Below, piece after piece: positions 2,894 through 17,424 of a stretch of 64,000 nt of DNA. A model generated the notes under the pieces. That model saw only the letters and a program-made list of their open reading frames with translations. It searched no databases and was not told the origin of the DNA. The stretch is taken from the IMG/VR virus record IMGVR_UViG_3300035696_000002; one strand, 5' to 3'. Source of the stretch: a virus. Lineage: Duplodnaviria; Heunggongvirae; Uroviricota; Caudoviricetes. The number at the start of each line of letters is the position of its first letter. The first letter of the stretch is position 1. Made by a program: the position numbers and the translations under genes.

Positions 2894-3280
2894 GTGATTC
2901 CCAACCTCTCACTTACGCAGGCCCTTGAAATCTACGAAGAACTGCTCGAAGCTTATCAGGGCACGAATGGGTTCGGCGGCAACGTCGCGGAAATCTACGC
3001 ATACCGTCTTTCCCCGGAAGACCCCTCGGCTGAAGTTGCTTATCGGAAAATGAATGAGATCAAGCCGGGTGATTTACTCCATACGGCCTTGATCGAACGC
3101 GGCATGATCGCTGCTTACAACCTGAAAATCCTGATTGAGTTTTTCATCAAACGTCATGAGGACGCGAAGGTCACAATCGAAATGTACGACGACAAAAAGA
3201 AAACATGGATTTTCGCTCCGTATAAAAAAGTCCTCAAGACGCCATTCATCCATCGCTGCCATGTTAGAATAGAGCAGTGA
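2894..3280 (+). CDS. hypothetical protein
   Basis: GTGA overlap start. Confidence 0.6.
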   Translation: MIPNLSLTQALEIYEELLEAYQGTNGFGGNVAEIYAYRLSPEDPSAEVAYRKMNEIKPGDLLHTALIERGMIAAYNLKILIEFFIKRHEDAKVTIEMYDDKKKTWIFAPYKKVLKTPFIHRCHVRIEQ

Positions 3281-3501
3281 TCCTGATCTGGGCTGCAAAC
3301 GCCACATTACTAGCTTCTGTCTGGCTCCTCGGTAGGAAGTCCTTCAAACTAGGTTGGGCTGCAAACCTCCTCGGTGATCTGATGTACACCTACGCCTCGC
3401 TGTATCTGATGCAGCCGAGGCACTGGGACATCGCTTCGTTCAATATCACGATTGCCTGTTTTGCAGCATGGAACCTATGGAAAACGTATACGACAAGCTA
3501 G
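3277..3501 (+). CDS. small membrane protein, PnuC-like
   Basis: Three hydrophobic segments; W..G.K....GW pattern. Confidence 0.5.
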   Translation: MILIWAANATLLASVWLLGRKSFKLGWAANLLGDLMYTYASLYLMQPRHWDIASFNITIACFAAWNLWKTYTTS

Positions 3502-7727: not shown

Positions 7728-7756
7728 TTGACATTTTCCGAAATACCCAGTACTAT
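7728..7756 (+). promoter_or_regulatory. sigma70-type promoter of the tRNA operon
   Basis: TTGACA-17 nt-TACTAT. Confidence 0.85.
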
Positions 7757-7793
7757 ACAGAGAGTCAGCAAACTGCTGGCCCGAGACACTACC

Positions 7794-7892
7794 ATGACCT
7801 CAATGAAACATAATACGGTCGCACGAAAGCAGTGGCGGAATCGTCGCCACGACGGCGTTGGTCTGTCCTCGGACACGGAGTTTGGGAAGTAA
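7794..7892 (+). CDS. attenuator leader peptide MTSMKHNTVARKQWRNRRHDGVGLSSDTEFGK
   Basis: 32-codon ORF between promoter and terminator; core enriched in K/H/N/R/Q/W codons. Confidence 0.75.
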   Translation: MTSMKHNTVARKQWRNRRHDGVGLSSDTEFGK

Positions 7893-7933
7893 ACAAAGCA
7901 ACCAAACCCAAAACGAGAGCAAACAGACCCGCC
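7854..7933 (+). promoter_or_regulatory. putative antiterminator helix
   Basis: GGCG/CGCC, GGTCTGT/ACAGACC, CTCG/CGAG, TTTGGG/CCCAAA pairings; overlaps the terminator 5' arm. Confidence 0.7.
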
Positions 7934-7958
7934 AAAAACTGGCGGGTTTTGCATTTTT
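7927..7958 (+). terminator. intrinsic terminator (attenuator)
   Basis: ACCCGCCA-loop-TGGCGGGT followed by TTTGCATTTTT. Confidence 0.85.
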
Positions 7959-7971
7959 AGTGGGAAAATTC

Positions 7972-8045
7972 GGGGGTGTCGGTTAATGGCAAACCAGCGG
8001 TCTCCAAAACCGTGACTGGGGGTTCAAGTCCCTCCACCCCCGCCA
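7972..8045 (+). tRNA. tRNA-Trp(CCA)
   Basis: Cloverleaf, anticodon loop CTCCAAA, encoded CCA. Confidence 0.95.
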
Positions 8046-8064
8046 AAAGATTGAGGCGGAGATT

Positions 8065-8692
8065 ATGGAATTGAAGATTGAACAGCAGACGCGAGGCACC
8101 CGCATCCTGCGGGGGGAGTCAGCTACCCGGAGGCGACTTCATCTCATCTAGTCTCGCAACAGCAGCGACGGCAGCCGGGTACGAGGAAATCGTACTCCCG
8201 TCGCTAGAGCCAGCCGCTCTCTACGCTGAAAAGGCTGGCCCTGAGATTCTGGGACAGATGTACTGCTTCCCGGACAAGAAAGGCAGGCAGTTGTGCCTGC
8301 GACCGGAAGGAACGGCGACCTGTCAGATACTCGCCGACACGGTAATGAAAATGGAGCGAGACGTGAAGCTCTGGTATCTGACGACCTGTTGGCGTTACGA
8401 ACGACCACAGGCTGGGCGGTACCGGGAGTTCACACAGTTCGGGGTGGAAATCCTGAACCCACGCGGCCCCGTCCGGGATGAGTTAGTGGCTTTGGCCGAA
8501 AGCATGGTGCGGCAGTTCACGGATCAGTATGAAGTGAACGCGGCAGTCAAGCGGGGGCTGGCCTACTACGTCGAGGATGGCTTCGAAATCAGTTGCCCGG
8601 CACTGGGGGCTCAGAAGCAAGTCTGCGGCGGCGGTTCATACAAGCAAGGCTGCGGTTTCGCAATTGGGGTAGATCGCATGATGCTTGTGTGA
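8065..8692 (+). CDS. histidyl-tRNA synthetase-like catalytic domain (no anticodon-binding domain); +1 frame break near 8137-8147
   Basis: RGTR N-terminus, GYEEIVLP, LRPEGT, WRYERPQAGRYREFTQFGVE, GGGSY, GFAIGVDR. Confidence 0.85.
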
Positions 8693-8697
8693 CGTAT

Positions 8698-8774
8698 GGT
8701 GGGCGTAGCTTAATGGTTAAAGCATCTGGCTGTGAACCAGAAGGTTGCGGGTTCGATTCCCGTCGCCCACCCCA
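8698..8774 (+). tRNA. tRNA-His(GTG)
   Basis: Cloverleaf, G-1/C73, CCA. Confidence 0.95.
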
Positions 8775-8785
8775 AAATTTTATAT

Positions 8786-8863
8786 GGTGTCATTGGTGTA
8801 GGGGCTTATCACGGCGGACTGTGAATCCGCTATTCGTGGGTTCGAATCCCACATGACACCCCA
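8786..8863 (+). tRNA. tRNA-His(GTG), second divergent copy
   Basis: Cloverleaf, G-1/C73, CCA. Confidence 0.9.
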
Positions 8864-8879
8864 AGATTGGAAGTGCACC

Positions 8880-9032
8880 ATGTGGTACGACGACAACGTG
8901 TGCGAAGTTTGCGGGTTGGAAAAGCCGGACGTTCGTGAACGCGAGTGCGGTTACTCGATGGAACTGACTGGCGAAGTGCACTTGGAAGTTATTTGCGATG
9001 ACTGCGAACACCAGCATTGCATGGACGTGTAG
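8880..9032 (+). CDS. small Cys-rich protein (50 aa)
   Basis: CEVC..CDDC; stop codon lies inside the next tRNA. Confidence 0.5.
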   Translation: MWYDDNVCEVCGLEKPDVRERECGYSMELTGEVHLEVICDDCEHQHCMDV

Positions 9033-9099
9033 CTCAGTTGGATAGAGCGTTCCCCTCCGAAGGGAAAGGTCGCAGGTTCGACTCCTGCCATGTCCACCA
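9023..9099 (+). tRNA. tRNA-Arg(CCG)
   Basis: Cloverleaf, loop CTCCGAA, CCA. Confidence 0.95.
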
Positions 9100-9103
9100 G
9101 TTT

Positions 9104-9343
9104 ATGAGTAGAACATTTACAATTCACGATACGGAACTCGCTACGTTCGAGAAGTTCAAGGCAGAGCACGAACCAAAGTGCGTCTACCACGGCGACACGA
9201 TGGCGAATCCGGGGCACATTCGGTACTTCACGCCGACATCGGCGTACACGATTATGTTCAAGCCGACAGGCGTCGGTGACGGCGTGCATGTGAAGTGCCT
9301 TTGCGGTGAAGAGGTAGACATCACCGATTACGAATTGTGGTAG
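9104..9343 (+). CDS. hypothetical protein
   Basis: ORF between tRNAs; PTGVG..VKC.CGEE.DITDY..W. Confidence 0.65.
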   Translation: MSRTFTIHDTELATFEKFKAEHEPKCVYHGDTMANPGHIRYFTPTSAYTIMFKPTGVGDGVHVKCLCGEEVDITDYELW

Positions 9344-9347
9344 TTTT

Positions 9348-9424
9348 GCTCGTGTAGCTCAACAGGAGAGAGCGTACCCCTGCGAAGGGTAAGATTTGTG
9401 GTTCGAGTCCACTCACGAGTACCA
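9348..9424 (+). tRNA. tRNA-Arg(GCG)
   Basis: Cloverleaf, loop CTGCGAA, CCA. Confidence 0.9.
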
Positions 9425-9435
9425 TTTTAGATTTT

Positions 9436-9513
9436 GCCCGGTTACCCATTGGACATGGGGCCTCGTCTTCGAAACGAGGACGCTCAAGGGTTCGAATCCC
9501 TTACCGGGTTCCA
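9436..9513 (+). tRNA. tRNA-Arg(TCG)
   Basis: Cloverleaf, loop CTTCGAA, CCA. Confidence 0.9.
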
Positions 9514-9589
9514 GATTTTGGTCTGACACACGCTGGTGTCAGCGTAAGCGAGGGTCGCCGTAATCAGTCGCCCTTCGGCCATGAAGTTT

Positions 9590-9666
9590 GTTTCCGTAGC
9601 TCAACTGGATAGAGTACGTGGCTACGAACCACGGGGTTGGGGGTTCGAATCCCTCCGGGAACACCA
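9590..9666 (+). tRNA. tRNA-Arg(ACG)
   Basis: Cloverleaf, loop CTACGAA, CCA. Confidence 0.95.
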
Positions 9667-9679
9667 GATGTTGTAACAT

Positions 9680-9766
9680 TGGGATGTAGAGCGTAATTGG
9701 TAGCGTGCACGGCTGTTAACCGTGTGTCGAAAGACCTTGTAGGTTCGAGCCCTACCGTCCCAGCCA
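9680..9766 (+). tRNA. tRNA-Asn(GTT) with long variable arm
   Basis: Loop CTGTTAA; variable hairpin GTC-GAAA-GAC; CCA. Confidence 0.88.
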
Positions 9767-9783
9767 AATTCATAGGAGGCGTT

Positions 9784-10038
9784 ATAGGCAAACAGAAGGA
9801 AGTGAAATTCAGCGTCAGGGTCAGCGACCATGACTACGGTTACAGAGTCGAGCAGGTGAAGCGATTTCTGGCCAAGAAGCATAGTGTTTTGGCTGTGGTG
9901 CAGTTTAAGGGGCGTGAGATCACACATCCCGAACTTGGGCAAGAGTTGTTGGCCCGGCTGCTAACCGATCTGGGGAGAAACGGAACTCCCGTCCTGAAGG
10001 GACGATCACTTCAAGTTCTGATTACGCCTAAGAGTTGA
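9784..10038 (+). CDS. infC: translation initiation factor IF-3, C-terminal domain only (probable ATA start)
   Basis: KEVKF..DHD..RFL..FKGREITHPELG; AGGAGG SD upstream of ATA. Confidence 0.8.
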   Translation: MGKQKEVKFSVRVSDHDYGYRVEQVKRFLAKKHSVLAVVQFKGREITHPELGQELLARLLTDLGRNGTPVLKGRSLQVLITPKS

Positions 10039-10115
10039 GCGGTGCCGTAGAAGGCAACCCTGTTCAATAGGAGGGCAGAGACCAAAGCGGTACTGCTCAA
10101 AAAGTTTTGATGTAT

Positions 10116-10203
10116 TGGGAAGTAGGAAAATTGGCAACCCCAGAGGATTCTGAATCCTCCGTGCTTAAGCACACTGAAGGTTCGAATCCTTCCTTCCCAG
10201 CCA
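10116..10203 (+). tRNA. tRNA-Gln(CTG) with long variable arm
   Basis: Loop TTCTGAA; variable hairpin GTGC-TTAA-GCAC; CCA. Confidence 0.88.
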
Positions 10204-10216
10204 AGTTTAGGAGTCG

Positions 10217-10286
10217 TGGACTGTAGCTTAGTTGGCAGAGCACCCCCGGCAAGGGGGAGACGCGGGTTCGATTCCCGCCAGCCCGA
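10217..10286 (+). ncRNA. tRNA-like RNA with 5-nt anticodon loop, no CCA
   Basis: Canonical D and T arms; CCCCC-GGCAA-GGGGG arm. Confidence 0.65.
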
Positions 10287-10369
10287 ATACGAACGACTCT
10301 TAGTGCTGAGAGTGGACGAGGATTTGTCCTGATCGTATCGGGACGTAGAATTGTCCGCTCTCGTTGCAT

Positions 10370-10444
10370 TCCTCGGTAGCTCAGGGGTAGAGCAGGTGGC
10401 TGTTAACCACCCTGTCGGAGGTTCGAATCCTTCCCGAGGAGCCA
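10370..10444 (+). tRNA. tRNA-Asn(GTT)
   Basis: Cloverleaf, CCA. Confidence 0.95.
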
Positions 10445-10446
10445 AG

Positions 10447-10547
10447 TTAGGTTAGAAGGTCGCGGACACAGGAACCGCCTCTCGTGTACTGTACGCTTCG
10501 GCTATCGACAGAGGACGGGTGTAGCTCAGGGAGAGCATCTAACCTGA
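10447..10547 (+). ncRNA. circularly permuted tRNA-like RNA (YrlA Y-RNA-like topology)
   Basis: TAGGTTAGA/TCTAACCTG closing stem, then AGGTC, T-like arm, looped acceptor stem, TAGCTCAGGGAGAGCA D arm. Confidence 0.6.
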
Positions 10548-10560
10548 AAGTTTGAAGCTG

Positions 10561-10628
10561 GGGGGCGTAGCTCAATGGTAGAGCAGCCCACACAAGGGAA
10601 GATGCGGGTTCGAGTCCCGCCGCCCCCA
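10561..10628 (+). ncRNA. tRNA-like RNA with degenerate anticodon arm, no CCA
   Basis: Perfect acceptor, D and T arms; shortened anticodon arm. Confidence 0.65.
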
Positions 10629-10716
10629 TAAGGCTTCATTAAAGGGCCAGAGATAGACCGGGACGCCGGGAACGTCGTGAAATCCTCATAGGCCCCACGT
10701 GATTAGAAGTAAAGCT

Positions 10717-10793
10717 GGGTGTGTGGTGTCAACGGCTAACATATCTCCCTCTTAAGGAGCAAGATGCTGGTTCAAATCCAGTCACACCCACCA
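10717..10793 (+). tRNA. tRNA-Lys(CTT)
   Basis: Loop CTCTTAA, CCA. Confidence 0.9.
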
Positions 10794-10814
10794 AGTTTGT
10801 GTTAGAGTGAAGTC

Positions 10815-11627
10815 ATGTTGCATCACGTAATTCAGAAGGACATGTTTCACGAGTTCGGGTTTCATACTCTGATTCGTGCGATGGAAGAAAACGAAGTCCC
10901 GTATTGCGTGGTGAAGATCATCCCGTTCAGTCATGAACTGACGTGGGAGTCAGGTGTGCCGCTGCCGGAGAGCACGGTGCCGACAATGATCTGGGGCATG
11001 ACCTGTGTTGAGGAAGTCGCCGGAGTAAGACAATGGACGCCCGGCGTGTTCAAGAACGAGAATTTCGATTTGCGTGTGATCGGCGAGAGGTACGGCGAGA
11101 ACATGCTGAATGCCGACGCGAAGTTTTGCAGGCTGGGGGATATTCCAGCGTTTGAGGGATCGGCATTCATTCGCCCGGTACACGACACAAAGTCGTTTAC
11201 CGGAGCCCTTATCAATGGCGAAGACCTGCGAACTTGGCAGGATCAGCTAATGCAGTTGAAGGGTGAGTTCACGACGTTGAGTCTGGACACCCCGGTGCTG
11301 TACGCCAGCCCGAAGAAGATTGATACTGAGTGTCGCTTCTTTGTGGTGGATGGAAAAGTTATCACTGGTAGTTCGTATCGGGTTAACGGTAGAGTATTAT
11401 ACAAGAGGGTGAACGCCGACAACCCGATGTGCATCCCCCTGAGGGAGTTTGCACAGAGAATGGTTGACCAGTGGCAACCTGTTGAAGCATTCGTGATCGA
11501 CATCGGACGAGTCGGCCAAGAATGCAAAGTGATCGAGATCAACTGCTTGAATTCGTCGGGGTTTTACGACTCGGACATGGCGGCGGTGGTCAGGGCGATC
11601 ACGAATTTACCAAGTTTGGATCGGTAG
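10815..11627 (+). CDS. ATP-grasp domain protein (DUF4343-like)
   Basis: FIRP..DTKSFTG, ECRFFVVDGKVITGS.Y, FVIDI..KVIEIN..NSSGFY. Confidence 0.8.
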   Translation: MLHHVIQKDMFHEFGFHTLIRAMEENEVPYCVVKIIPFSHELTWESGVPLPESTVPTMIWGMTCVEEVAGVRQWTPGVFKNENFDLRVIGERYGENMLNADAKFCRLGDIPAFEGSAFIRPVHDTKSFTGALINGEDLRTWQDQLMQLKGEFTTLSLDTPVLYASPKKIDTECRFFVVDGKVITGSSYRVNGRVLYKRVNADNPMCIPLREFAQRMVDQWQPVEAFVIDIGRVGQECKVIEINCLNSSGFYDSDMAAVVRAITNLPSLDR

Positions 11628-11693
11628 CTCAATTGGCAGAGCAGGTGACTCTTAATCATCAGGTTGGGGGTTCGATTCCCTCCCGGTTCACCA
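11618..11693 (+). tRNA. tRNA-Lys(CTT)
   Basis: Cloverleaf, CCA. Confidence 0.95.
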
Positions 11694-11696
11694 ATT

Positions 11697-11765
11697 TTAC
11701 GGGTCGCTTAGAAGACGGAAGCAGGCGGCGGTACCGCCGTTGCGGGTTCAATGTCCGCCCCGTGA
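11697..11765 (+). ncRNA. tRNA-like RNA with 5-nt anticodon loop, no CCA
   Basis: GCTT/AAGC D stem, GGCGG-CGGTA-CCGCC arm, GCGGG-TTCAATG-TCCGC T arm. Confidence 0.55.
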
Positions 11766-12486
11766 ATTCGGGTCGAAGGCTAAATGCCTGATTGTTCCCG
11801 TGGACACCCAAACGAAAGAGGCGTGACCAAGCCGGAGAGTCGGCACCAGTTTTATGCGAAAGACGTGTCCCAGTTGTCTCGGTGATGACGCAGCAGAGCG
11901 AGAAGGCCGGAATTTCGACCCTCTCTATGGCACCGTAGAGATTTACTGCACGTACTGTGGCTCGTTTGTGGACATGATCTGGCGATGGCAGACAGACGAT
12001 TCGGTCTGGCAAAAGTTTAAGGAACAAGCGAGGGGATATGTGGGGTGCTCCTGAGGACGTGCCGGGTCGTTGTAACGCCCGGCTTTTTGTTGGGGACGAT
12101 TATGGCGACAACACCGCGACGTTCATGTGCGAGTTAGACCCCGGCCACGAAGGTAAGCACCGGGAAGTCTTCCGCGATGGCACAGCGGTCATAGAGTGGG
12201 AGACCGATGAGAGGCAGACCGGGAACGATCCTGACCTGTAAGGATTTTGCGGATTTGGGCATCGAATGTTGCGAGGCCTGCCACGACGTAGAGAATCTTG
12301 ACCCGCTTTTACGGATCAGGGTCGATGGGCAGGAAGCCCTAGTTTGTTGTGAAATAATGGCATTTTTCTACCCTGACGAAGCAGATCAGGCGGATTTTTG
12401 GCAAGCTCAAATGGACGAGGCCGAGGCGTTAAACCCACCAAAGCCAGAGGACTTTGAAAACCCTGAATAGAAGGGGAATTGATTTT

Positions 12487-13035
12487 ATGGCTGACACTCT
12501 AGTACTTGACATGTCGGGAACCCCAATCGGGTTCGTTTCTTGGCAGCGGGCTGTGAAGCTCTACTGGGAAGACCGTGCCGTCATCGTGGATGATGACGCA
12601 AACCGGATTCTCCACTCGCCGTCCTTCGAAATGAACATGCCGACCGTCATCCGTGCTAAGAACTGGGTGCAGCGTCGGAAGAAGGAACGTGTCCCGTTCT
12701 CGCGTCGCAACATCGCGATCCGCGACAACAGCCGTTGCCAGTACTGCAATAAGCTGTTGCAGACGGCCCAGTACACGATGGATCACGTCATCCCTCGTTG
12801 CAAGGGCGGAACGTCTACGTGGACGAACCTCGTGCTTGCTTGCATCCGTTGCAACAAGTACAAGTCTGGTTGCACGCCGGAGGAGGCAGGTATGCATCTG
12901 TTGAAGCAGCCTATCGAGCCGAAGGCAGATGACCCGAAGTACAACTTCAAGCTTCGGATCAAGAAGATGCACCCGACGTGGAAGCCGTGGGTCGATGGCG
13001 GCTGGCTGTACTGGAACATCGAACTGGACAAGTAG
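12487..13035 (+). CDS. HNH endonuclease (McrA/HNH_5-like)
   Basis: FSRRNI..RD..CQYC..TMDHVIPR..GG...WTNLV.AC..CN..K. Confidence 0.9.
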   Translation: MADTLVLDMSGTPIGFVSWQRAVKLYWEDRAVIVDDDANRILHSPSFEMNMPTVIRAKNWVQRRKKERVPFSRRNIAIRDNSRCQYCNKLLQTAQYTMDHVIPRCKGGTSTWTNLVLACIRCNKYKSGCTPEEAGMHLLKQPIEPKADDPKYNFKLRIKKMHPTWKPWVDGGWLYWNIELDK

Positions 13036-13456
13036 GAGAAGTCATGAGCCTAGTGCTAAGCGGCGATTTTTGCGGCTGTGAGAAGCATCATGGCTCATGG
13101 CACTCCAACTGCCCCGAGTGTGACACGGAAGAGGGCAAGTCCTGCTGGAAGTTTTTGCACGTGCAACTACCGTGCGGTAAGTGCGATAATTGCATTCGCA
13201 ACGGGAACAAGCCGTATGATTGGCGTAAGGAAATGCTGGGCGGGGAGTTTACCGAAAGTTTCATCGCTTGAAGGAGCCTTATGGACGTTGACAGTATTCG
13301 CAAGTTGGGCATTAGCAGCAGCCTCGGAGACAAGGAAACAGTAGCTCTCTTCGAGAAGTTGATCGCATACGGCTGGATTGACGGGGCCGGGCGGTCGTTA
13401 CCGTGGACGGCTCATCTTCGCCGCAAGGATCGTGCAGCGGCAGCGGGGCGTGAGTA

Positions 13457-13714
13457 ATGCCGTACAACTACCCCGGCTTACTTCGCAGCGAAGACACCAA
13501 CGACCACGATTGGCGGATTGTGTGTGATGTGCTGGATGCAGCCATCGCTCACTGGAAAAAGCGGAGCGAAACCGAGAGTGATTTGTTCGGTTCGGCCTAC
13601 GGTCATCACTACGTAGGGGCTCTCACAGAAGTTCAGATCGCGTTACTCGGCGGCGAAAGCGACAACGTCGATGAGAAGGCGATTGAGGCCATGATTAAGG
13701 CCGCAAAAGTTTGA
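13457..13714 (+). CDS. hypothetical protein
   Basis: TAATG-coupled ORF. Confidence 0.55.
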   Translation: MPYNYPGLLRSEDTNDHDWRIVCDVLDAAIAHWKKRSETESDLFGSAYGHHYVGALTEVQIALLGGESDNVDEKAIEAMIKAAKV

Positions 13715-13800
13715 TCCCGTAGTCTAGTTGGACAAGGCAGCGGTTTCCTAAACCGCAGAGCGAAAGCTCATCGGGGGTTCGAATCCCTCCGGGATCACCA
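13713..13800 (+). tRNA. tRNA-Arg(CCT) with long variable arm
   Basis: Loop TTCCTAA; variable hairpin GAGC-GAAA-GCTC; CCA. Confidence 0.9.
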
Positions 13801-13821
13801 TTTTGATTGCAGGAGCACGCG

Positions 13822-14094
13822 ATGTTTAAGACGATGCAGTTGGTTTATCGGAACATGGTTTGGAACCGCCCGAAGATCGGGCTGTGGGGTTTGATCGTAG
13901 TCGCGTTAGTGGCCACGACAGACCTGTACTTCAGCATTTTGCGGATCGGTGGGGGCCGGGTAACTGCTGGCGTATTCGCCGCCTTCGCACTGAGCTTCTG
14001 GTTCGTCGGGTTGCCAATGGTTCTGACACTGATCGACCTGAAGATGAAGCCCCAGAGGATGGAAAAAATCTGGGCACAGATGCACAAGCAGTAA
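13822..14094 (+). CDS. small membrane protein
   Basis: AGGAG SD; two hydrophobic helices. Confidence 0.6.
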   Translation: MFKTMQLVYRNMVWNRPKIGLWGLIVVALVATTDLYFSILRIGGGRVTAGVFAAFALSFWFVGLPMVLTLIDLKMKPQRMEKIWAQMHKQ

Positions 14095-14100
14095 ACGTTT

Positions 14101-14174
14101 TGCCCCTTCGTTCAACGGCAGGACACTTGGCTCTGAACCAAGGTATGGTGGTTCGAATCCATCAGGGGCAGCCA
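14101..14174 (+). tRNA. tRNA-Gln(CTG)
   Basis: Cloverleaf, CCA. Confidence 0.95.
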
Positions 14175-14661
14175 AGTTTTGGGCTTCAGAATCCATTTGT
14201 ATATGGAACTGAAACCGTATAAGATCGTTGCAATGCCGTTCGCACAATCTGACGCGACCGCCGAATACACGGAGTATGCGATCAGCGAAGATCAGGCCTT
14301 GCGAAATTTTGAACGACGTTACCCGGCGTACCGGGTTAAAGAAGTAAGGGAAGCGTGAGCAAGTACGACGGAACAATTTGCAACGACTGTAACACCGAGA
14401 TTTATCAGGACAAGTGCAACTGTGATTATTACCGGGCACACCCTGAGGCAACCTTACCCGAGAATGAAACATCTAGGGAGATAGGTCGCAGGATTCGAGA
14501 AGACTTTGGCGATGAGATCGCCGGAGCATTGAAATAGATTATGACCATGCTAAACTACATGCCGCTGATTGCCGCAACCGAGATCATGGTTCTCGTTGTG
14601 CCCCGCCTCGTCTTCGCGATTGCCGCGACTCCTCTCAGACGAAAACGCTAACCCAATCCTT

Positions 14662-14743
14662 GGGGGCGTAGACTCGTGGTCTTCTAAACCATAAGAGCTT
14701 AACCGGACTGAAAATGTGGGTTCGAATCCCACCGCTCCCTCCA
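14662..14743 (+). tRNA. non-canonical tRNA-Arg(TCT) lacking the D arm
   Basis: Acceptor, anticodon and T arms plus CCA intact; 7 nt in place of the D arm; 23-nt variable region. Confidence 0.7.
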
Positions 14744-14760
14744 TACCTTTGCGTACCTTT

Positions 14761-14835
14761 GCCTCCGTAGCTTAACGGTAAAGCTACCGCCTTTTAAGCG
14801 GATAGATGGGGGTTCGATTCCCTCCGGGGGTACCA
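14761..14835 (+). tRNA. tRNA-Lys(TTT)
   Basis: Cloverleaf, CCA. Confidence 0.92.
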
Positions 14836-14837
14836 AT

Positions 14838-14917
14838 GGGGGTGTAACTCAATCGGGTCAAGAGTACCCGGCTTTTAACCGGGAAGTTGCAGGCAACCCA
14901 ATCTGCCGCCCCCACCA
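14838..14917 (+). tRNA. tRNA-Lys(TTT) with aberrant T loop
   Basis: Loop CTTTTAA, T loop CAACCCAA, CCA. Confidence 0.8.
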
Positions 14918-15655: not shown

Positions 15656-15738
15656 TACCAACCGGAAAAAGATAAAACAAGAAATAGTTTCTGTGGTACG
15701 TTTGTTTCGTGGACACATTCCACAGACAAAGGGTATAT

Positions 15739-16326
15739 ATGTCAAAAGCTGCTGTAAAGGAACAAGCAATTGAGGTAAAACGGTTGGATATTCGTTCTAT
15801 CCGGCTGACGCTCGAAGGCGATTCACCGCTCATTTCCCACAAGTGGGCGGAAAAGGCAAAAAAGGAAATGCTCGACAAGCAGATGAAGAAGGCCAAGACT
15901 GCTAAGGAAGCAAAAGACCCCGAGAAGGACTACAAGGATAGCCTGTATGAGTATCCGGGCGGCGGTTTTGGTTTCCCAACGATTGGCGTCAAGGCTGCTG
16001 CGGTCACCGCTGCTGCTCAATGCGACATGTTCAAAACTGACGCACGTGCAGCATTCCACATCGACGGCGATCTGGTTAAGATCGACGGCGAACCGGAGAT
16101 GCGGGAAGACATGGTGCGAGTTGGCATGGGCACTGCGGACATCCGCTATCGCGGCATGTTCCCCAAGTGGAGGACAACCTTCACGCTCAAGTACAACGCA
16201 TCCGTGTTGTCTGCTGAGCAGATCGTGAACTTGTTCAACGCTGCGGGATTCGGCGTTGGCATCGGTGAGTGGCGTCCCCAGAAGAACGGGTCGTTCGGTC
16301 GCTTTCACGTTGCAAACGAAGCGTAA
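15739..16326 (+). CDS. stand-alone Cas7/RAMP-superfamily-like protein
   Basis: L.G.SPLI.H start, FP..GVK helix, IRYR..F..W, C-terminal G-rich loop AGFGVGIGEWRPQKNGSFGRF. Confidence 0.75.
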   Translation: MSKAAVKEQAIEVKRLDIRSIRLTLEGDSPLISHKWAEKAKKEMLDKQMKKAKTAKEAKDPEKDYKDSLYEYPGGGFGFPTIGVKAAAVTAAAQCDMFKTDARAAFHIDGDLVKIDGEPEMREDMVRVGMGTADIRYRGMFPKWRTTFTLKYNASVLSAEQIVNLFNAAGFGVGIGEWRPQKNGSFGRFHVANEA

Positions 16327-16331
16327 CAGAA

Positions 16332-16360
16332 ACCGGGGCCTAACCGCCCCGGTAGTTTTT
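16332..16360 (+). terminator. hairpin/terminator after the RAMP gene
   Basis: ACCGGGGC/GCCCCGGT followed by AGTTTTT. Confidence 0.65.
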
Positions 16361-16368
16361 ATAAGCGA

Positions 16369-16589
16369 GGTAGGGCAGGCTTGGCATGGTACGGCGGGGA
16401 GAGGCGAGGTCAGGCATGGCAGGTATGGCGTGGTAAGGTCGGGTGAGGCGAGATCGGGGCTAGGCGGGGCAGGCGTGGTGCGGTAAGGTGTGGTCGGGTC
16501 TGGTAAGGCGTGGTTGGGTAGGGCAGGCAAGGTGAGGTGAGGCGGGGAGAGGTGAGGTATGGTTAGGCCCGGCGTGGCAGGCGAGGTGT
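16369..16589 (+). repeat. GGY-NN pentamer array 1 (putative guide ncRNA), about 40 units with 5 GGCA separators
   Basis: Parsed directly: near-invariant GGY with a variable NN every 5 nt. Confidence 0.9.
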
Positions 16590-16614
16590 GATAAAATCAT
16601 TTTGAGGTGGAGCT

Positions 16615-17091
16615 ATGGTTTACAAATGGAAAGCAGCAGCACAGATCAAAGGACTCGATCCGCAAGTTTGTGGCGACCGGATGGAGTACATCAAGAAAAC
16701 AGTTGGAGCCGTAACAGCAGAAACAGTTCTTGAAGATGCCCGCAACATTAACTCGCCCCTGCACGGTGGTTTCACATGGGACGACAACGAAGCAGCAGAA
16801 CAGCACCGCCTCAATGAGGCACGATATCTTCTTCGTCAGATTGTGATCTACGAGGAGCCCAAAGAACCGGAAGGCGAACCTACGATTATTCGTGCGTTCG
16901 TAAATGTTCAGGAAGAAAACCAGCCGGATGCAACCTATGTTGATATAACGACGGCGATGAGCGATCCAAAATTGCGTGAGCAGATTTTGGAGCGAGCATA
17001 CCGCGAGCTTACGGCGTGGAAAGTTCGTTACGAAGAGTTTGAAGAGTTCGCACGGGTCGTCAAAGCAATCAACTCAGTGAAGCTGAAATAG
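16615..17091 (+). CDS. hypothetical partner protein between the two arrays
   Basis: GAGGTGGAG SD; V.EDAR...SPLH..FTWDD..AAEQHRL..AR.L motif. Confidence 0.8.
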   Translation: MVYKWKAAAQIKGLDPQVCGDRMEYIKKTVGAVTAETVLEDARNINSPLHGGFTWDDNEAAEQHRLNEARYLLRQIVIYEEPKEPEGEPTIIRAFVNVQEENQPDATYVDITTAMSDPKLREQILERAYRELTAWKVRYEEFEEFARVVKAINSVKLK

Positions 17092-17118
17092 GCGACCGCT
17101 GCGGAGTAGAGCGAAACG

Positions 17119-17396
17119 GGCGTGGTGAGGTACGGCACGGCTAGGTATGGCCCGGTTTGGCGTGGCAGGCGTGGTGTGGCGTGGCCCGTCGCGGTCTGGT
17201 GTGGTAAGGTAGGGTTAGGTATGGCAGGCGAGGTAAGGCGGGGATAGGCATGGTGCGGTGCGGCACGGCAGGTGAGGTGAGGTGAGGCGGGCTGGGCGAG
17301 GCATGTTTGGGCGGGGCGAGGCAGGCGGGGCTGGGCTGCGTATGGCATGGTCGGCAGGGTCAGGTCGGGTTTGGCATGGCAGGCACGGATCGGATA
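17119..17396 (+). repeat. GGY-NN pentamer array 2 (putative guide ncRNA), about 50 units with GGCA separators
   Basis: Same grammar as array 1 with different NN content. Confidence 0.9.
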
Positions 17397-17424
17397 AACC
17401 CCCTGAGTTCAGGGGGTTTCCTAT
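17396..17424 (+). terminator. terminator hairpin closing array 2
   Basis: AAACCCCCTGA/TCAGGGGGTTT. Confidence 0.8.

What the first reader, a model, noticed from the sequence alone, without database searches (positions are those of the whole stretch)
15739..17424. Solo Cas7/RAMP-like gene with two GGY-NN pentamer arrays: candidate RNA-guided system using a gapped code
Seen: a 195-aa protein with a RAMP-type C-terminal G-rich loop (AGFGVGIGEWRPQKNGSFGRF), then array 1 (16369-16589), a 158-aa gene, array 2 (17119-17396) and a terminator. The arrays are not microsatellites. GGY is nearly invariant while NN varies freely, and 4-nt GGCA units split them into segments of mostly 8-11 pentamers. Array 1 NN strings: TT AT AC GG GA GA CA AT | AT GT AA CG GA GA CG TA GG | GT GC AA GT CG CT AA GT TG AG | AA GA GA GG GA GA AT TA CC GT. 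Array 2 begins: GT GA AC AC TA AT CC TT GT | GT GT GT CC GC CT GT AA AG TA AT | GA AA GG TA AT GC GC AC. No cas1/2/5/6 gene or CRISPR repeat was seen. Established: Cas7 RAMPs polymerise on guide RNA with a fixed nucleotide period. Inference: one protomer binds each GGY, the NN doublets are displayed for pairing, and each GGCA-delimited segment is one guide. From memory this resembles the recently reported phage VIPR-type systems; that recollection needs checking.
Basis: partly seen in the sequence, partly recalled or inferred. Interest (0 to 1): 0.97.

Follow-up and report, generated by a model that had tools for sequence, protein, structure and literature searches.

The report
VIPR guide-RNA system in a megaphage
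This 463-kb phage carries a complete VIPR system, a CRISPR-related RNA-guided DNA silencer first described in 2026 preprints; it is a new example of a known kind, and one of its roughly nine guides exactly spells the catalytic motif of an integrase gene of a mobile element in a soil Terriglobia bacterium.

Summary
The kind is already in print: VIPR, bioRxiv 10.64898/2026.04.26.720920.720927 and 2026.10.15.759431. This scan also holds 93 earlier VIPR notes in at least 84 other genomes.

- **Vipr protein.** The 195-aa protein is a true Vipr. A profile comparison with the solved SUSP1 Vipr gives probability 98.3% (E 1e-14). The RNA-contact residues are kept, and the AF2 model (pLDDT 94) matches Csm3/Cas7.
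- **Accessory gene.** The 158-aa gene is conserved next to vipr in 78 of 82 related loci. It is unrelated in sequence to SUSP1 vap1 and has a weakly winged-helix-like N-terminal part.
- **Arrays.** The two arrays hold 93 pentamers, 83 of them GGY. 4-nt GGCA units cut them into runs of 8-11 pentamers. In 75 of 83 loci (the window included), same-strand arrays are present; across them GGCA is the main punctuation, at the same spacing. This fits the preprint's "staggered" tail-less arrays.
- **Predicted target.** By the published 1-nt-skip rule, guide A1.3 (16472-16521) has one exact 20/20 match in each of two collections. Both lie in orthologous tyrosine-integrase genes, with the skipped bases at wobble positions, spelling LHTFRRTFAT. 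I put about 0.7 on this being a real target.
- **Negatives.** The other guides and self-targeting stayed at chance level.

Verdict: new member of a known kind, interest 0.35.

The parts
15739..16326 (+). vipr: 195-aa single-RRM RAMP (Cas7-like) protein that should polymerise on the pentamer RNA
   Evidence: hhalign of the clade alignment against SUSP1 Vipr gives probability 98.3%, E 1.2e-14, over 170 columns. phmmer to PDB 36pp_D 'SUSP1 Vipr protein' gives E 4.6e-5. The clade profile finds SUSP1 vipr at E 4.9e-16. The AF2 model has pLDDT 94, and Foldseek's top hits are Csm3/Cas7. It matches phrog_4652 at E 3e-32. It is single-copy in the genome.
16332..16353 (+). GC-rich hairpin followed by a T-run, between vipr and array 1 (terminator-like or attenuator-like; role not known)
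   Evidence: Consensus scan: 8 pairs, 7 of them G-C, tail AGTTTTTATA. A GC-rich hairpin lies at the same place in locus L001.
16369..16589 (+). vrRNA array 1: four GGCA-delimited guides, A1.1 16378-16417 (8 units), A1.2 16422-16467 (9), A1.3 16472-16521 (10) and A1.4 16526-16575 (10), plus a short end piece
   Evidence: Tokenisation. The lag-5 autocorrelation is 0.59. The same architecture is seen in 75 of 83 loci.
16472..16521 (+). Guide A1.3 (NN = GT GC AA GT CG CT AA GT TG AG), the only guide with a predicted natural target
   Evidence: There is one exact 20/20 NNx match in metagenome contigs (L088:3707-3735) and one in genome contigs (L092:6638-6666, Terriglobia MAG). Both lie in orthologous PF00589 integrase genes.
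16615..17091 (+). vap: 158-aa Vipr-accessory protein with a weakly winged-helix-like N-terminal part (residues about 12-112) and a C-terminal helical hairpin
   Evidence: A homologue lies beside vipr in 78 of 82 related loci. It matches phrog_15946 at E 1e-19. The AF2 model has pLDDT 90. Similarity to winged-helix domains is weak: VIA-align Z 4.3-5.3 and Foldseek E 0.5-3. There is no similarity to SUSP1 vap1.
17119..17396 (+). vrRNA array 2: five GGCA-delimited guides, A2.0 17120-17163 (9 units), A2.1 17168-17222 (11), A2.2 17227-17266 (8), A2.3 17271-17319 (10, one internal 4-nt unit) and A2.4 17324-17377 (11, one internal 4-nt unit), plus an end piece
   Evidence: Tokenisation.
17400..17416 (+). 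Intrinsic-terminator-like hairpin that closes the module
   Evidence: Consensus scan: CCCCTGAGTTCAGGGGG followed by TTTCCTATTG.

Best explanation
The stretch 15739-17416 is a self-contained VIPR (Viral Interference Programmable Repeat) cassette of a 463-kb phage. It reads vipr, hairpin, vrRNA array 1, vap, vrRNA array 2, terminator.

Proposed mechanism, inferred by homology to the SUSP1 system:
- The arrays are transcribed.
- Vipr protomers bind one per pentamer and hold each GGY between two neighbouring protomers.
- The NN dinucleotides are displayed. The filament then binds double-stranded DNA whose sequence reads NN-x-NN-x..., with one base skipped per unit, and blocks transcription there.

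In this clade the guides carry no 3' tail. A 4-nt GGCA unit shifts the register by -1 every 8-11 pentamers. I infer that this break ends one filament and starts the next, so each array yields four or five guides.

The vap product probably assists at the DNA; its winged-helix likeness is weak.

At least one guide (A1.3) appears aimed at the catalytic HxxR box of a tyrosine integrase. That integrase belongs to an element integrated at tRNA-Ser in a Terriglobia bacterium. I infer that the phage silences excision or integration of a resident competing element in its host, as SUSP1 does with its satellite's recombinase. My odds for this target are about 0.7.
For: Shown here:
- Homology to SUSP1 Vipr.
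- The residues that contact vrRNA or the target in the cryo-EM structure (H17, K33, R138, D177, W178, R179) align with H34, K50, R138, E177, W178 and R179 here. R138 and R179 are invariant in 71 relatives.
- Cas7/Csm3 fold.
- 75 of 83 loci (the window included) have same-strand arrays of 12 or more units, and none has one on the opposite strand. GGCA makes up 293 of 408 4-nt units. Runs between GGCAs peak at 8-11 pentamers.
- NN strings are not shared between loci.
- vap is adjacent in 78 of 82 loci. The other neighbouring genes are not conserved.
- The genome is a virus record of 463,033 bases, with one vipr, one vap and only these two arrays.

Target of guide A1.3:
- It has a single exact 20/20 hit in each of two collections.
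- Both hits lie in orthologous integrases with 88% amino-acid and 87% nucleotide identity.
- The skipped bases fall on codon position 3.
- The one difference between the two target sites is at a skipped base.
- In the MAG the integrase lies beside tRNA-Ser(GGA) and an HTH_17 gene.
- 100 shuffled guides reach at most 17/20 in 80 kb.

Against: - No expression, processing or binding data exist for this locus. The preprint says staggered arrays were not among the array types it confirmed by sRNA-seq.
- About one exact chance match per collection is expected for 20 specified bases in roughly 0.5-0.6 Tb. The target claim therefore rests on where the hit lies (integrase catalytic box, wobble phase), not on the count. 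The two hits are orthologues, so they are not independent.
- The other eight guides gave only chance-level matches in the Terriglobia MAG, in its integrase-bearing element and in IMG/VR. There is no convergence of several guides on one element.
- The vap fold matches are weak (Z about 5).
- Several units are irregular, so some guides may be decaying.
Confidence: 0.9

Rival explanations
1. The locus is a VIPR system, but the GGCA units are only degenerate repeats. Each array would then be one long guide (or be cut elsewhere), not four or five guides of 8-11 units.
For: No processing signal such as a ribozyme or tail is present. Other 4-nt units (GGCC, GGCT, GGTT, GGCG) also occur in related arrays, 115 of 408. 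sRNA-seq has not been reported for this array type.
Against: GGCA is by far the commonest 4-nt unit, 293 of 408. Spacing between GGCAs is sharply peaked at 8-11 pentamers across loci whose Vipr proteins are only 50-86% identical, including actinophages. The unit after GGCA is biased to GGC-R-A (C 0.83, purine 0.88, against 0.67 and 0.67 in the background). The exact integrase match spans one GGCA-to-GGCA segment and does not continue into the preceding segment.
Confidence: 0.12
2. The Vipr-vrRNA complex of this clade acts on RNA rather than DNA, for example by blocking or destabilising the integrase mRNA. Guide A1.3 is antisense to that mRNA.
For: The closest structural relatives are RNA-targeting type III Csm3 subunits. 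The one predicted target lies on the strand that would also pair with the mRNA.
Against: In the homologous SUSP1 system, double-stranded DNA binding, silencing from either strand and an R-loop triplex were shown. K33, the residue that contacts the target-strand backbone, is conserved here as K50. One target cannot establish a strand bias.
Confidence: 0.06
3. The pentamer tracts are not guide RNAs. They would be G-rich microsatellite-like DNA (for example G-quadruplex-forming or recombinogenic repeats) or part of spurious or real coding sequence, and sit beside a RAMP-like gene by coincidence.
For: GG runs spaced by three bases can in principle form two-tetrad quadruplexes. Gene callers place ORFs over such arrays, for example the 114-aa call at L001:2069-2413 and the minus-strand ORFs over the window arrays.
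Against: A 5-nt period cannot encode a repeating peptide. The variable NN with fixed GGY is the opposite of microsatellite slippage. Arrays are strictly co-oriented with vipr in 75 loci and are never on the other strand. Homologous arrays are transcribed and co-purify with Vipr in SUSP1.
Confidence: 0.02

Closest known systems
Type II VIPR system of Escherichia phage SUSP1 (vipr AVU07_agp039, vap1 AVU07_agp038, four vrRNAs; bioRxiv 10.64898/2026.04.26.720920, .720927; PDB 36pp)
   Same: The Vipr protein is homologous (hhalign probability 98.3%) and has the same length of 195 aa. The G-loop GxGxWRP and the thumb arginine are kept. Both have GGY/NN pentamer RNA genes on both sides of a two-gene vipr-vap operon, lie in a phage genome, and lack cas genes and a CRISPR array. 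Both have a (predicted) guide against a recombinase gene with the skip bases at wobble positions.
   Different: SUSP1 vrRNAs each end in a conserved 3' tail with a pseudoknot and have their own flanks. Here the guides abut directly, separated only by a 4-nt GGCA unit. The vap here shows no sequence similarity to vap1. Pairwise, only the C-terminal 65 residues of the two Viprs align by BLASTP, at 35% identity.
'Staggered vrRNA arrays' of the VIPR classification (fig. S18 of 10.64898/2026.04.26.720920)
   Same: [quoted passage not shown] GGCA followed by GG is exactly two pentamers, GGCAG and GGYNN, sharing one G.
   Different: I could read only the legend, not the figure or the data tables. Which of the seven types this clade belongs to, and whether GGCA is the published boundary, is therefore not verified. 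The preprint did not confirm this array type by sRNA-seq.
Vipr-vap-array cassettes of cultured actinophages (Mycobacterium phage Quico QUICO_57/58 and about 26 other Mycobacterium phages; Gordonia phages ODay, Ecliptus, Pipp)
   Same: Vipr is 41-42% identical over 93-97% of its length. The arrays are the same GGCA-punctuated, tail-less kind. A vap-sized gene follows vipr.
   Different: These are temperate phages of 50-60 kb. In Quico the array lies upstream of vipr, inside the immunity region between cro/antirepressor and xis. In these records the genes are annotated only as hypothetical proteins.
CRISPR type III Csm3 / Cas7 backbone subunits (for example PDB 9ash_F, 7uzw_B, 8do6_E)
   Same: Both have an RRM core, a thumb hairpin and a glycine-rich loop, and polymerise on a guide RNA with a fixed period (Foldseek E 1e-5 to 1e-4, TM 0.45-0.57).
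   Different: Sequence identity is 8-16%. There are no Cas10, Csm2/4/5, Cas6, Cas1 or Cas2 genes and no repeat-spacer array. The period is 5 nt with 2 read bases, instead of 6 nt with 5 read bases. The target is dsDNA that is silenced, not RNA that is cut (literature).

Membership tests
VIPR system | Vipr protein: a small single-RRM RAMP with a thumb and a glycine-rich loop, homologous to the described Vipr proteins | tested here: met
   hhalign against SUSP1 Vipr gives probability 98.3%, E 1.2e-14. phmmer to PDB 36pp_D gives E 4.6e-5. The AF2 model has pLDDT 94, with a beta-alpha-beta-beta-alpha-beta core, a hairpin at 120-141 and a G-loop at 170-187. Foldseek's top hits are Csm3/Cas7.
VIPR system | Conservation of the residues that hold GGY and the target backbone in the cryo-EM structure (H17, K33, R138, D177, W178, R179 of SUSP1 Vipr) | tested here: met
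   They align with H34, K50, R138, E177 (D to E), W178 and R179. R138 and R179 are invariant in 71 relatives.
VIPR system | Adjacent, co-oriented tandem GGY/NN (YNNGG) pentamer repeats with hypervariable NN, at least 4 units | tested here: met
   The two arrays hold 42 and 51 units, 83 of 93 of them GGY. 75 of 83 loci have same-strand arrays and none has one on the other strand. NN strings are not shared between loci.
VIPR system | Minimal locus: vipr plus one accessory (vap) gene, with no other cas genes and no CRISPR array | tested here: met
   The vap homologue is adjacent in 78 of 82 loci. Flanking genes are not conserved. No CRISPR-period repeat occurs in the window.
VIPR system | Viral or proviral genome context | tested here: met
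   The own genome is held as a virus record of 463,033 bases. Relatives come from IMG/VR contigs and cultured actinophages.
VIPR system | Guides match natural DNA targets by the 1-nt-skip (NNx) rule, typically in competing mobile elements with the skip at wobble positions, and do not target the own genome | tested here: inconclusive
   One of nine guides has an exact 20/20 match in an integrase gene, in wobble phase. The others are at chance level. No self-target exceeds the shuffled null.
VIPR system | vrRNAs are expressed, co-purify with Vipr and silence a matching dsDNA target | not testable with these tools
   This needs sRNA-seq, pull-down and reporter assays.
Type II VIPR (SUSP1 / P. fulva clade) | Each vrRNA ends in a conserved structured 3' tail (a pseudoknot in SUSP1), and the accessory gene is vap1 | tested here: not met
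   No tail lies between the guides here, while SUSP1 arrays show the repeated tail and no GGCA. vap against vap1 gives BLASTP E 1.5, no similarity. I therefore do not file the locus under type II.
VIPR with staggered arrays (fig. S18) | Tail-less array in which successive vrRNAs overlap by 1 nt | tested here: inconclusive
   GGCA+GG equals two pentamers sharing one G, recurring every 8-11 units. Only the figure legend was readable, and no supplementary data are held.
CRISPR-Cas class 1 (type III/I) effector | Cas7 together with Cas5, a large subunit and Cas6, plus a repeat-spacer array | tested here: not met
   The Cas7-like fold is present. However, there is no CRISPR-period repeat in the window, the cassette has only two genes, and the neighbours are not conserved.

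The most novel reading that the evidence does not exclude
In this large, mostly uncultured Vipr clade, which also includes Mycobacterium and Gordonia phages, guide length would be set without a tail, a ribozyme or a dedicated nuclease. A single -1 register slip (GGCA) every 8-11 pentamers would break the Vipr filament, so the protein itself measures and delimits the guides. In addition, the megaphage would use one such guide to silence the integrase of a resident Terriglobia element. That would give both a host assignment for a 463-kb phage and a second, independent case of VIPR aimed at a recombinase active site.
Probability: 0.35. Interest if true: 0.55.

Novelty: new member of a known kind. 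Interest (0 to 1): 0.35.

Why it matters
VIPR is a very recent discovery, and only the SUSP1 and P. fulva clade has been studied experimentally. This locus adds four things.

1. **A VIPR cassette in a 463-kb phage.** The system is therefore also kept by very large phages.
2. **Numbers for the tail-less array type.** GGCA punctuation and the 8-11-unit guide length are conserved across 75 loci. This architecture has not yet been tested experimentally.
3. **Culturable relatives.** Mycobacterium smegmatis and Gordonia terrae phages carry the same architecture, so the guide-delimitation question could be answered with routine sRNA-seq.
4. **A concrete predicted target.** It is an integrase catalytic box in a Terriglobia integrated element. 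It mirrors the published SUSP1 satellite-recombinase case and offers a testable host link for an uncultured megaphage.

None of this changes the known picture of how VIPR works.

Tried and rejected
1. **Self-regulation lead (e1-5713859).** An earlier scan note said two segments match the vipr RBS/start. The best matches in 15690-15790 are 12/18 (A2.0, minus strand) and 11/16 (A2.2). These are below the published 80% threshold and below the genome-wide chance maximum of 13-14. Rejected.
2. **Self-targets in the own genome.** Every guide's best score in the 463-kb genome equals the shuffled-guide null.
3. **Guides of related phages against this phage.** I tested 191 guides from related loci. The real and shuffled score distributions are the same, with means 0.766 and 0.761.
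4. **Exact NNx patterns in IMG/VR.** Guides A1.3, A1.4, A2.0 and A2.1 gave 0 hits.
5. **Other guides against the Terriglobia MAG.** This covered the whole MAG and 80 kb around the integrase. Only chance-level hits appeared, equal to the reversed-pattern control.
6. **A1.3 with up to 2 mismatches in 301 Terriglobia-class genomes.** Two extra hits appeared, neither in an integrase. The control pattern gave about ten. The target is therefore rare, and only the exact match counts.
7. **A second hit near the integrase.** Guide A1.2 scores 14/18 about 600 bp downstream of the integrase (L089:11665). That is below threshold and near chance, so I did not count it.
8. **Integrase-motif spelling among the 191 related guides.** None found.
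9. **Family and RNA libraries.** Pfam and NCBIfam gave nothing for either protein, and Rfam gave nothing for the region.
10. **attL/attR of the Terriglobia element.** I found no direct repeat of 14 nt or more of the tRNA-Ser region within 80 kb, so the element borders are not defined.
11. **Whole metagenome record.** I could not reach the full record behind L088.
12. **Preprint supplementary tables.** The type assignments and target lists are not held, so the VIPR type number could not be assigned.
Full report
**1. Observation**

The sequence is as described.
- A 195-aa ORF lies at 15739-16326 and a 158-aa ORF at 16615-17091.
- Two G-rich tracts (about 52% G) lie at 16369-16589 and 17119-17396.
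- An optimal parse into 5-nt units, which allows 4- or 6-nt slips at a penalty, reads both tracts as GGYNN pentamers interrupted by 4-nt GGCA units.
- Of the 93 units that are not GGCA, 83 are GGY.
- Autocorrelation peaks at lag 5 (0.59, against about 0.27 at lags 2-3).
- The GGCA units delimit segments of 8, 9, 10 and 10 pentamers in array 1 and 9, 11, 8, 10 and 11 in array 2.
- Elsewhere in the 463-kb genome the longest such run on either strand is 7 units, against 42 and 51 here. Chance is therefore excluded.
- Terminator-like hairpins lie at 16332-16353 and 17400-17416.
- No CRISPR-period repeat and no Rfam family is present.

**2. The literature**

- Each has a small ancestral RAMP protein (Vipr), usually one accessory gene (vap), and vrRNAs made of 9-16 YNNGG repeats.
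- The NN dinucleotides read double-stranded DNA with one base skipped per unit.
- Cryo-EM shows one protomer per repeat. The two Gs are held by H17, D177, R138 and W178 of one protomer. The Y sits in a pocket of the next protomer that includes R179. K33 contacts the target backbone.
- Seven types are defined. Array forms include tailed arrays (type II, SUSP1), ribozyme-interspersed arrays, single vrRNAs, and 'staggered arrays' in which vrRNAs overlap by 1 nt. The staggered form was not among those confirmed by sRNA-seq.
- A later preprint shows that SUSP1's VIPR silences the excision recombinase of a satellite, reading codon positions 1-2 and skipping the wobble base.
- A fourth preprint recovers 99 VIPR-like clusters from intergenic sequence alone.

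**3. The protein is a Vipr**

- Pfam and NCBIfam have no model for it. PHROGs places it in phrog_4652, of unknown function (E 3e-32).
- Against PDB sequences the only significant hit is 36pp_D, 'SUSP1 Vipr protein' (E 4.6e-5).
- The family is very large. 3,997 clusters at 50% identity match at E 1e-3 or better, and more than 7,700 clusters at 90% identity match.
- A 71-sequence alignment (A1) used as a profile finds the SUSP1 vipr gene at E 4.9e-16. It aligns to it by hhalign with probability 98.3% over 170 columns.
- In that alignment the functional SUSP1 residues H17, K33, R138, D177, W178 and R179 correspond to H34, K50, R138, E177, W178 and R179. R138 and R179 are invariant in the clade.
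- The AlphaFold2 model is confident (pLDDT 94, pTM 0.85). It shows an RRM core, a long beta-hairpin (120-141, the thumb) and the C-terminal glycine-rich loop.
- Foldseek's best 50 PDB matches are almost all Csm3, Cmr4 or Cas7 subunits (E 1e-5 to 1e-3, probability 1.00, TM 0.4-0.57).

**4. The arrays and the second gene travel with it**

- I fetched 82 related loci. 80 are IMG/VR contigs with 50-86% identical Vipr, and two are metagenome contigs carrying an 85% identical one.
- Counting the window, 75 of 83 loci have an array of 12 or more GGY units on the vipr strand. None has one on the other strand. The eight without an array are mostly cut short by contig ends.
- GGCA accounts for 293 of 408 4-nt units. 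The number of pentamers between successive GGCAs peaks sharply: 30 at 8, 55 at 9, 36 at 10 and 35 at 11.
- The unit after GGCA is biased to GGC-purine-A.
- NN strings are not shared between loci. The best overlaps are 57-79% over 7-9 units.
- A homologue of the 158-aa protein is adjacent in 78 of 82 loci. Usually it lies directly after vipr, and sometimes, as here, an array sits between them. The other neighbours of the window cassette have no counterpart in any locus. The module is therefore vipr + vap + arrays.
- The same GGCA-punctuated arrays flank the 41-42% identical homologues in Mycobacterium phage Quico and Gordonia phage ODay. SUSP1's arrays show repeated tails and no GGCA.

**5. The accessory protein**

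- It matches phrog_15946, of unknown function. It has no Pfam hit, no PDB sequence hit and no similarity to SUSP1 vap1.
- The AF2 model (pLDDT 90) has an N-terminal helix-helix-helix-strand-strand part (residues about 12-112). This part resembles winged-helix domains only weakly: forkhead, MarR/PadR, Fur-family and Z-alpha domains, at VIA-align Z 4.3-5.3 and Foldseek E 0.5-3. A C-terminal helical hairpin follows.
- This fits the preprint's statement that several vap families are predicted DNA binders, but it is not proof.

**6. How the guides are probably delimited (inference)**

- GGCA followed by GG equals two pentamers (GGCAG, GGYNN) sharing one G. That matches the wording of the staggered-array legend.
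- Each GGY is held jointly by two neighbouring protomers. A unit one base short should therefore break the filament register.
- I infer that each GGCA ends one filament and starts the next. This would give four or five guides per array, with no tail or ribozyme.
- The conserved spacing supports this, and so does the target match described next, which fills exactly one segment.

**7. Targets**

- No guide matches the phage's own genome above a shuffled-guide null. This agrees with the preprints.
- An earlier scan note claimed that two segments match the vipr start region. That claim is at chance level (12/18 and 11/16).
- Exact NNx patterns of four guides found nothing in IMG/VR.
- Guide A1.3 is the one 10-unit guide whose units are all canonical. 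It gave exactly one exact match in the JGI metagenome contigs (L088:3707-3735) and exactly one in 596 Gb of species-representative genomes (L092:6638-6666, a Terriglobia MAG).
- Both hits lie in orthologous genes, 88% identical in protein and 87% in DNA over 1.7 kb. These genes encode a 420-aa tyrosine recombinase (PF00589 E 1.6e-15, plus the SAM-like N-terminal domain). An HTH_17 excisionase-like gene follows each.
- The guide is antisense to the gene, and the skipped bases fall on codon position 3. The read bases spell L-H-T-F-R-R-T-F-A-T, the HxxR catalytic box.
- The only difference between the two sites is at a skipped base.
- In the MAG the integrase lies beside tRNA-Ser(GGA). After it come small unannotated ORFs, a family-A DNA polymerase and, 12 kb away, a second integrase. 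This is an integrated mobile element whose borders I could not define. In the metagenome contigs the int-xis pair sits next to an IS21 in a chromosomal context.

How strong is this?
- With 20 specified bases, roughly one chance hit per collection is expected. The count alone therefore proves nothing, and the two hits are orthologues.
- The weight comes from three things: the location (integrases are a fraction of a percent of such DNA), the wobble phase (one in three), and the exact parallel to the published SUSP1 case.
- Hits with up to 2 mismatches in 301 Terriglobia genomes are chance. There are 2, neither in an integrase, against about 10 for the reversed control.
- The other eight guides show nothing in that MAG.
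- An earlier case in this scan, where 'guides spell catalytic motifs' was read boldly, was later marked down.
- I therefore put about 0.7 on A1.3 truly targeting this integrase family. I treat the host inference (Terriglobia) as a lead only.

**8. Verdict**

- The system is a member of the published VIPR class. It is not type II. It best fits the tail-less staggered-array form, but the type number could not be assigned because the supplementary tables are not held.
- The scan has already met VIPR systems many times (93 notes in at least 84 genomes).
- Specific to this case are the 463-kb phage context, the statistics of GGCA punctuation across the clade including culturable actinophages, and one predicted integrase target.
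- Novelty: new member of a known kind. Interest: 0.35.

Noticed in passing
L086 (Mycobacterium phage Quico NC_028751.1) 2107-2504; L087 (Gordonia phage ODay MW534375.1) 3110-3320: Cultured actinophages carry the same GGCA-punctuated, tail-less pentamer arrays next to vipr and vap homologues that are annotated only as hypothetical proteins. In Quico the array lies in the immunity region, between cro/antirepressor and xis. About 27 Mycobacterium and 5 Gordonia phage records have the gene.
   Followed up: partly
L001:2069-2413: A public gene call of 114 aa lies entirely inside a pentamer array. It is almost certainly spurious. The window's minus-strand ORFs 15823-16530 and 17028-17348 are artefacts of the same kind.
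   Followed up: no
L098 (G001:C12:60001-80000), about 66.3-79.9 kb of the contig: In the Terriglobia MAG, the A1.3-matched integrase sits at tRNA-Ser(GGA). An xis-like HTH_17 gene, unannotated small ORFs and a family-A DNA polymerase follow, and a second integrase (phrog_1) lies only about 12 kb away. This could be a small satellite-like element or two tandem elements. No capsid genes were recognised among the ORFs I scanned.
   Followed up: partly
L089:11665-11690 (= L088:3084-3109): Guide A1.2 matches 14 of 18 read positions in the intergenic stretch about 100 bp after the xis-like gene, roughly 600 bp from the A1.3 site. This is below the 80% threshold and near chance, but its closeness to the exact hit is worth a look with a mismatch-tolerant search.
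   Followed up: partly
L088:3704-3705: The target DNA also reads AG-x immediately before the 20/20 match. AG is what the boundary unit GGCA(G) would display if it counted as a unit (chance 1 in 16). This may bear on where a staggered guide really begins.
   Followed up: no
window 15700-15735: An inverted repeat (CTGTGG ... CCACAG) lies just upstream of the vipr ribosome-binding site. It could be an operator or a processing hairpin. I found no sigma-70-like promoter before vipr or before either array.
   Followed up: no
window 7728-14917: A dense tRNA gene block lies a few hundred bases upstream of the cassette. Earlier scan notes treat it separately. It is not conserved next to VIPR cassettes in other loci.
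   Followed up: no
L030:4221-5346 and L031:4221-5125: Two related IMG/VR loci have very long arrays (229 and 184 units). Their 4-nt punctuation is mostly GGCC/GGCT/GGCG rather than GGCA, which suggests that subclades use other boundary units.
   Followed up: no
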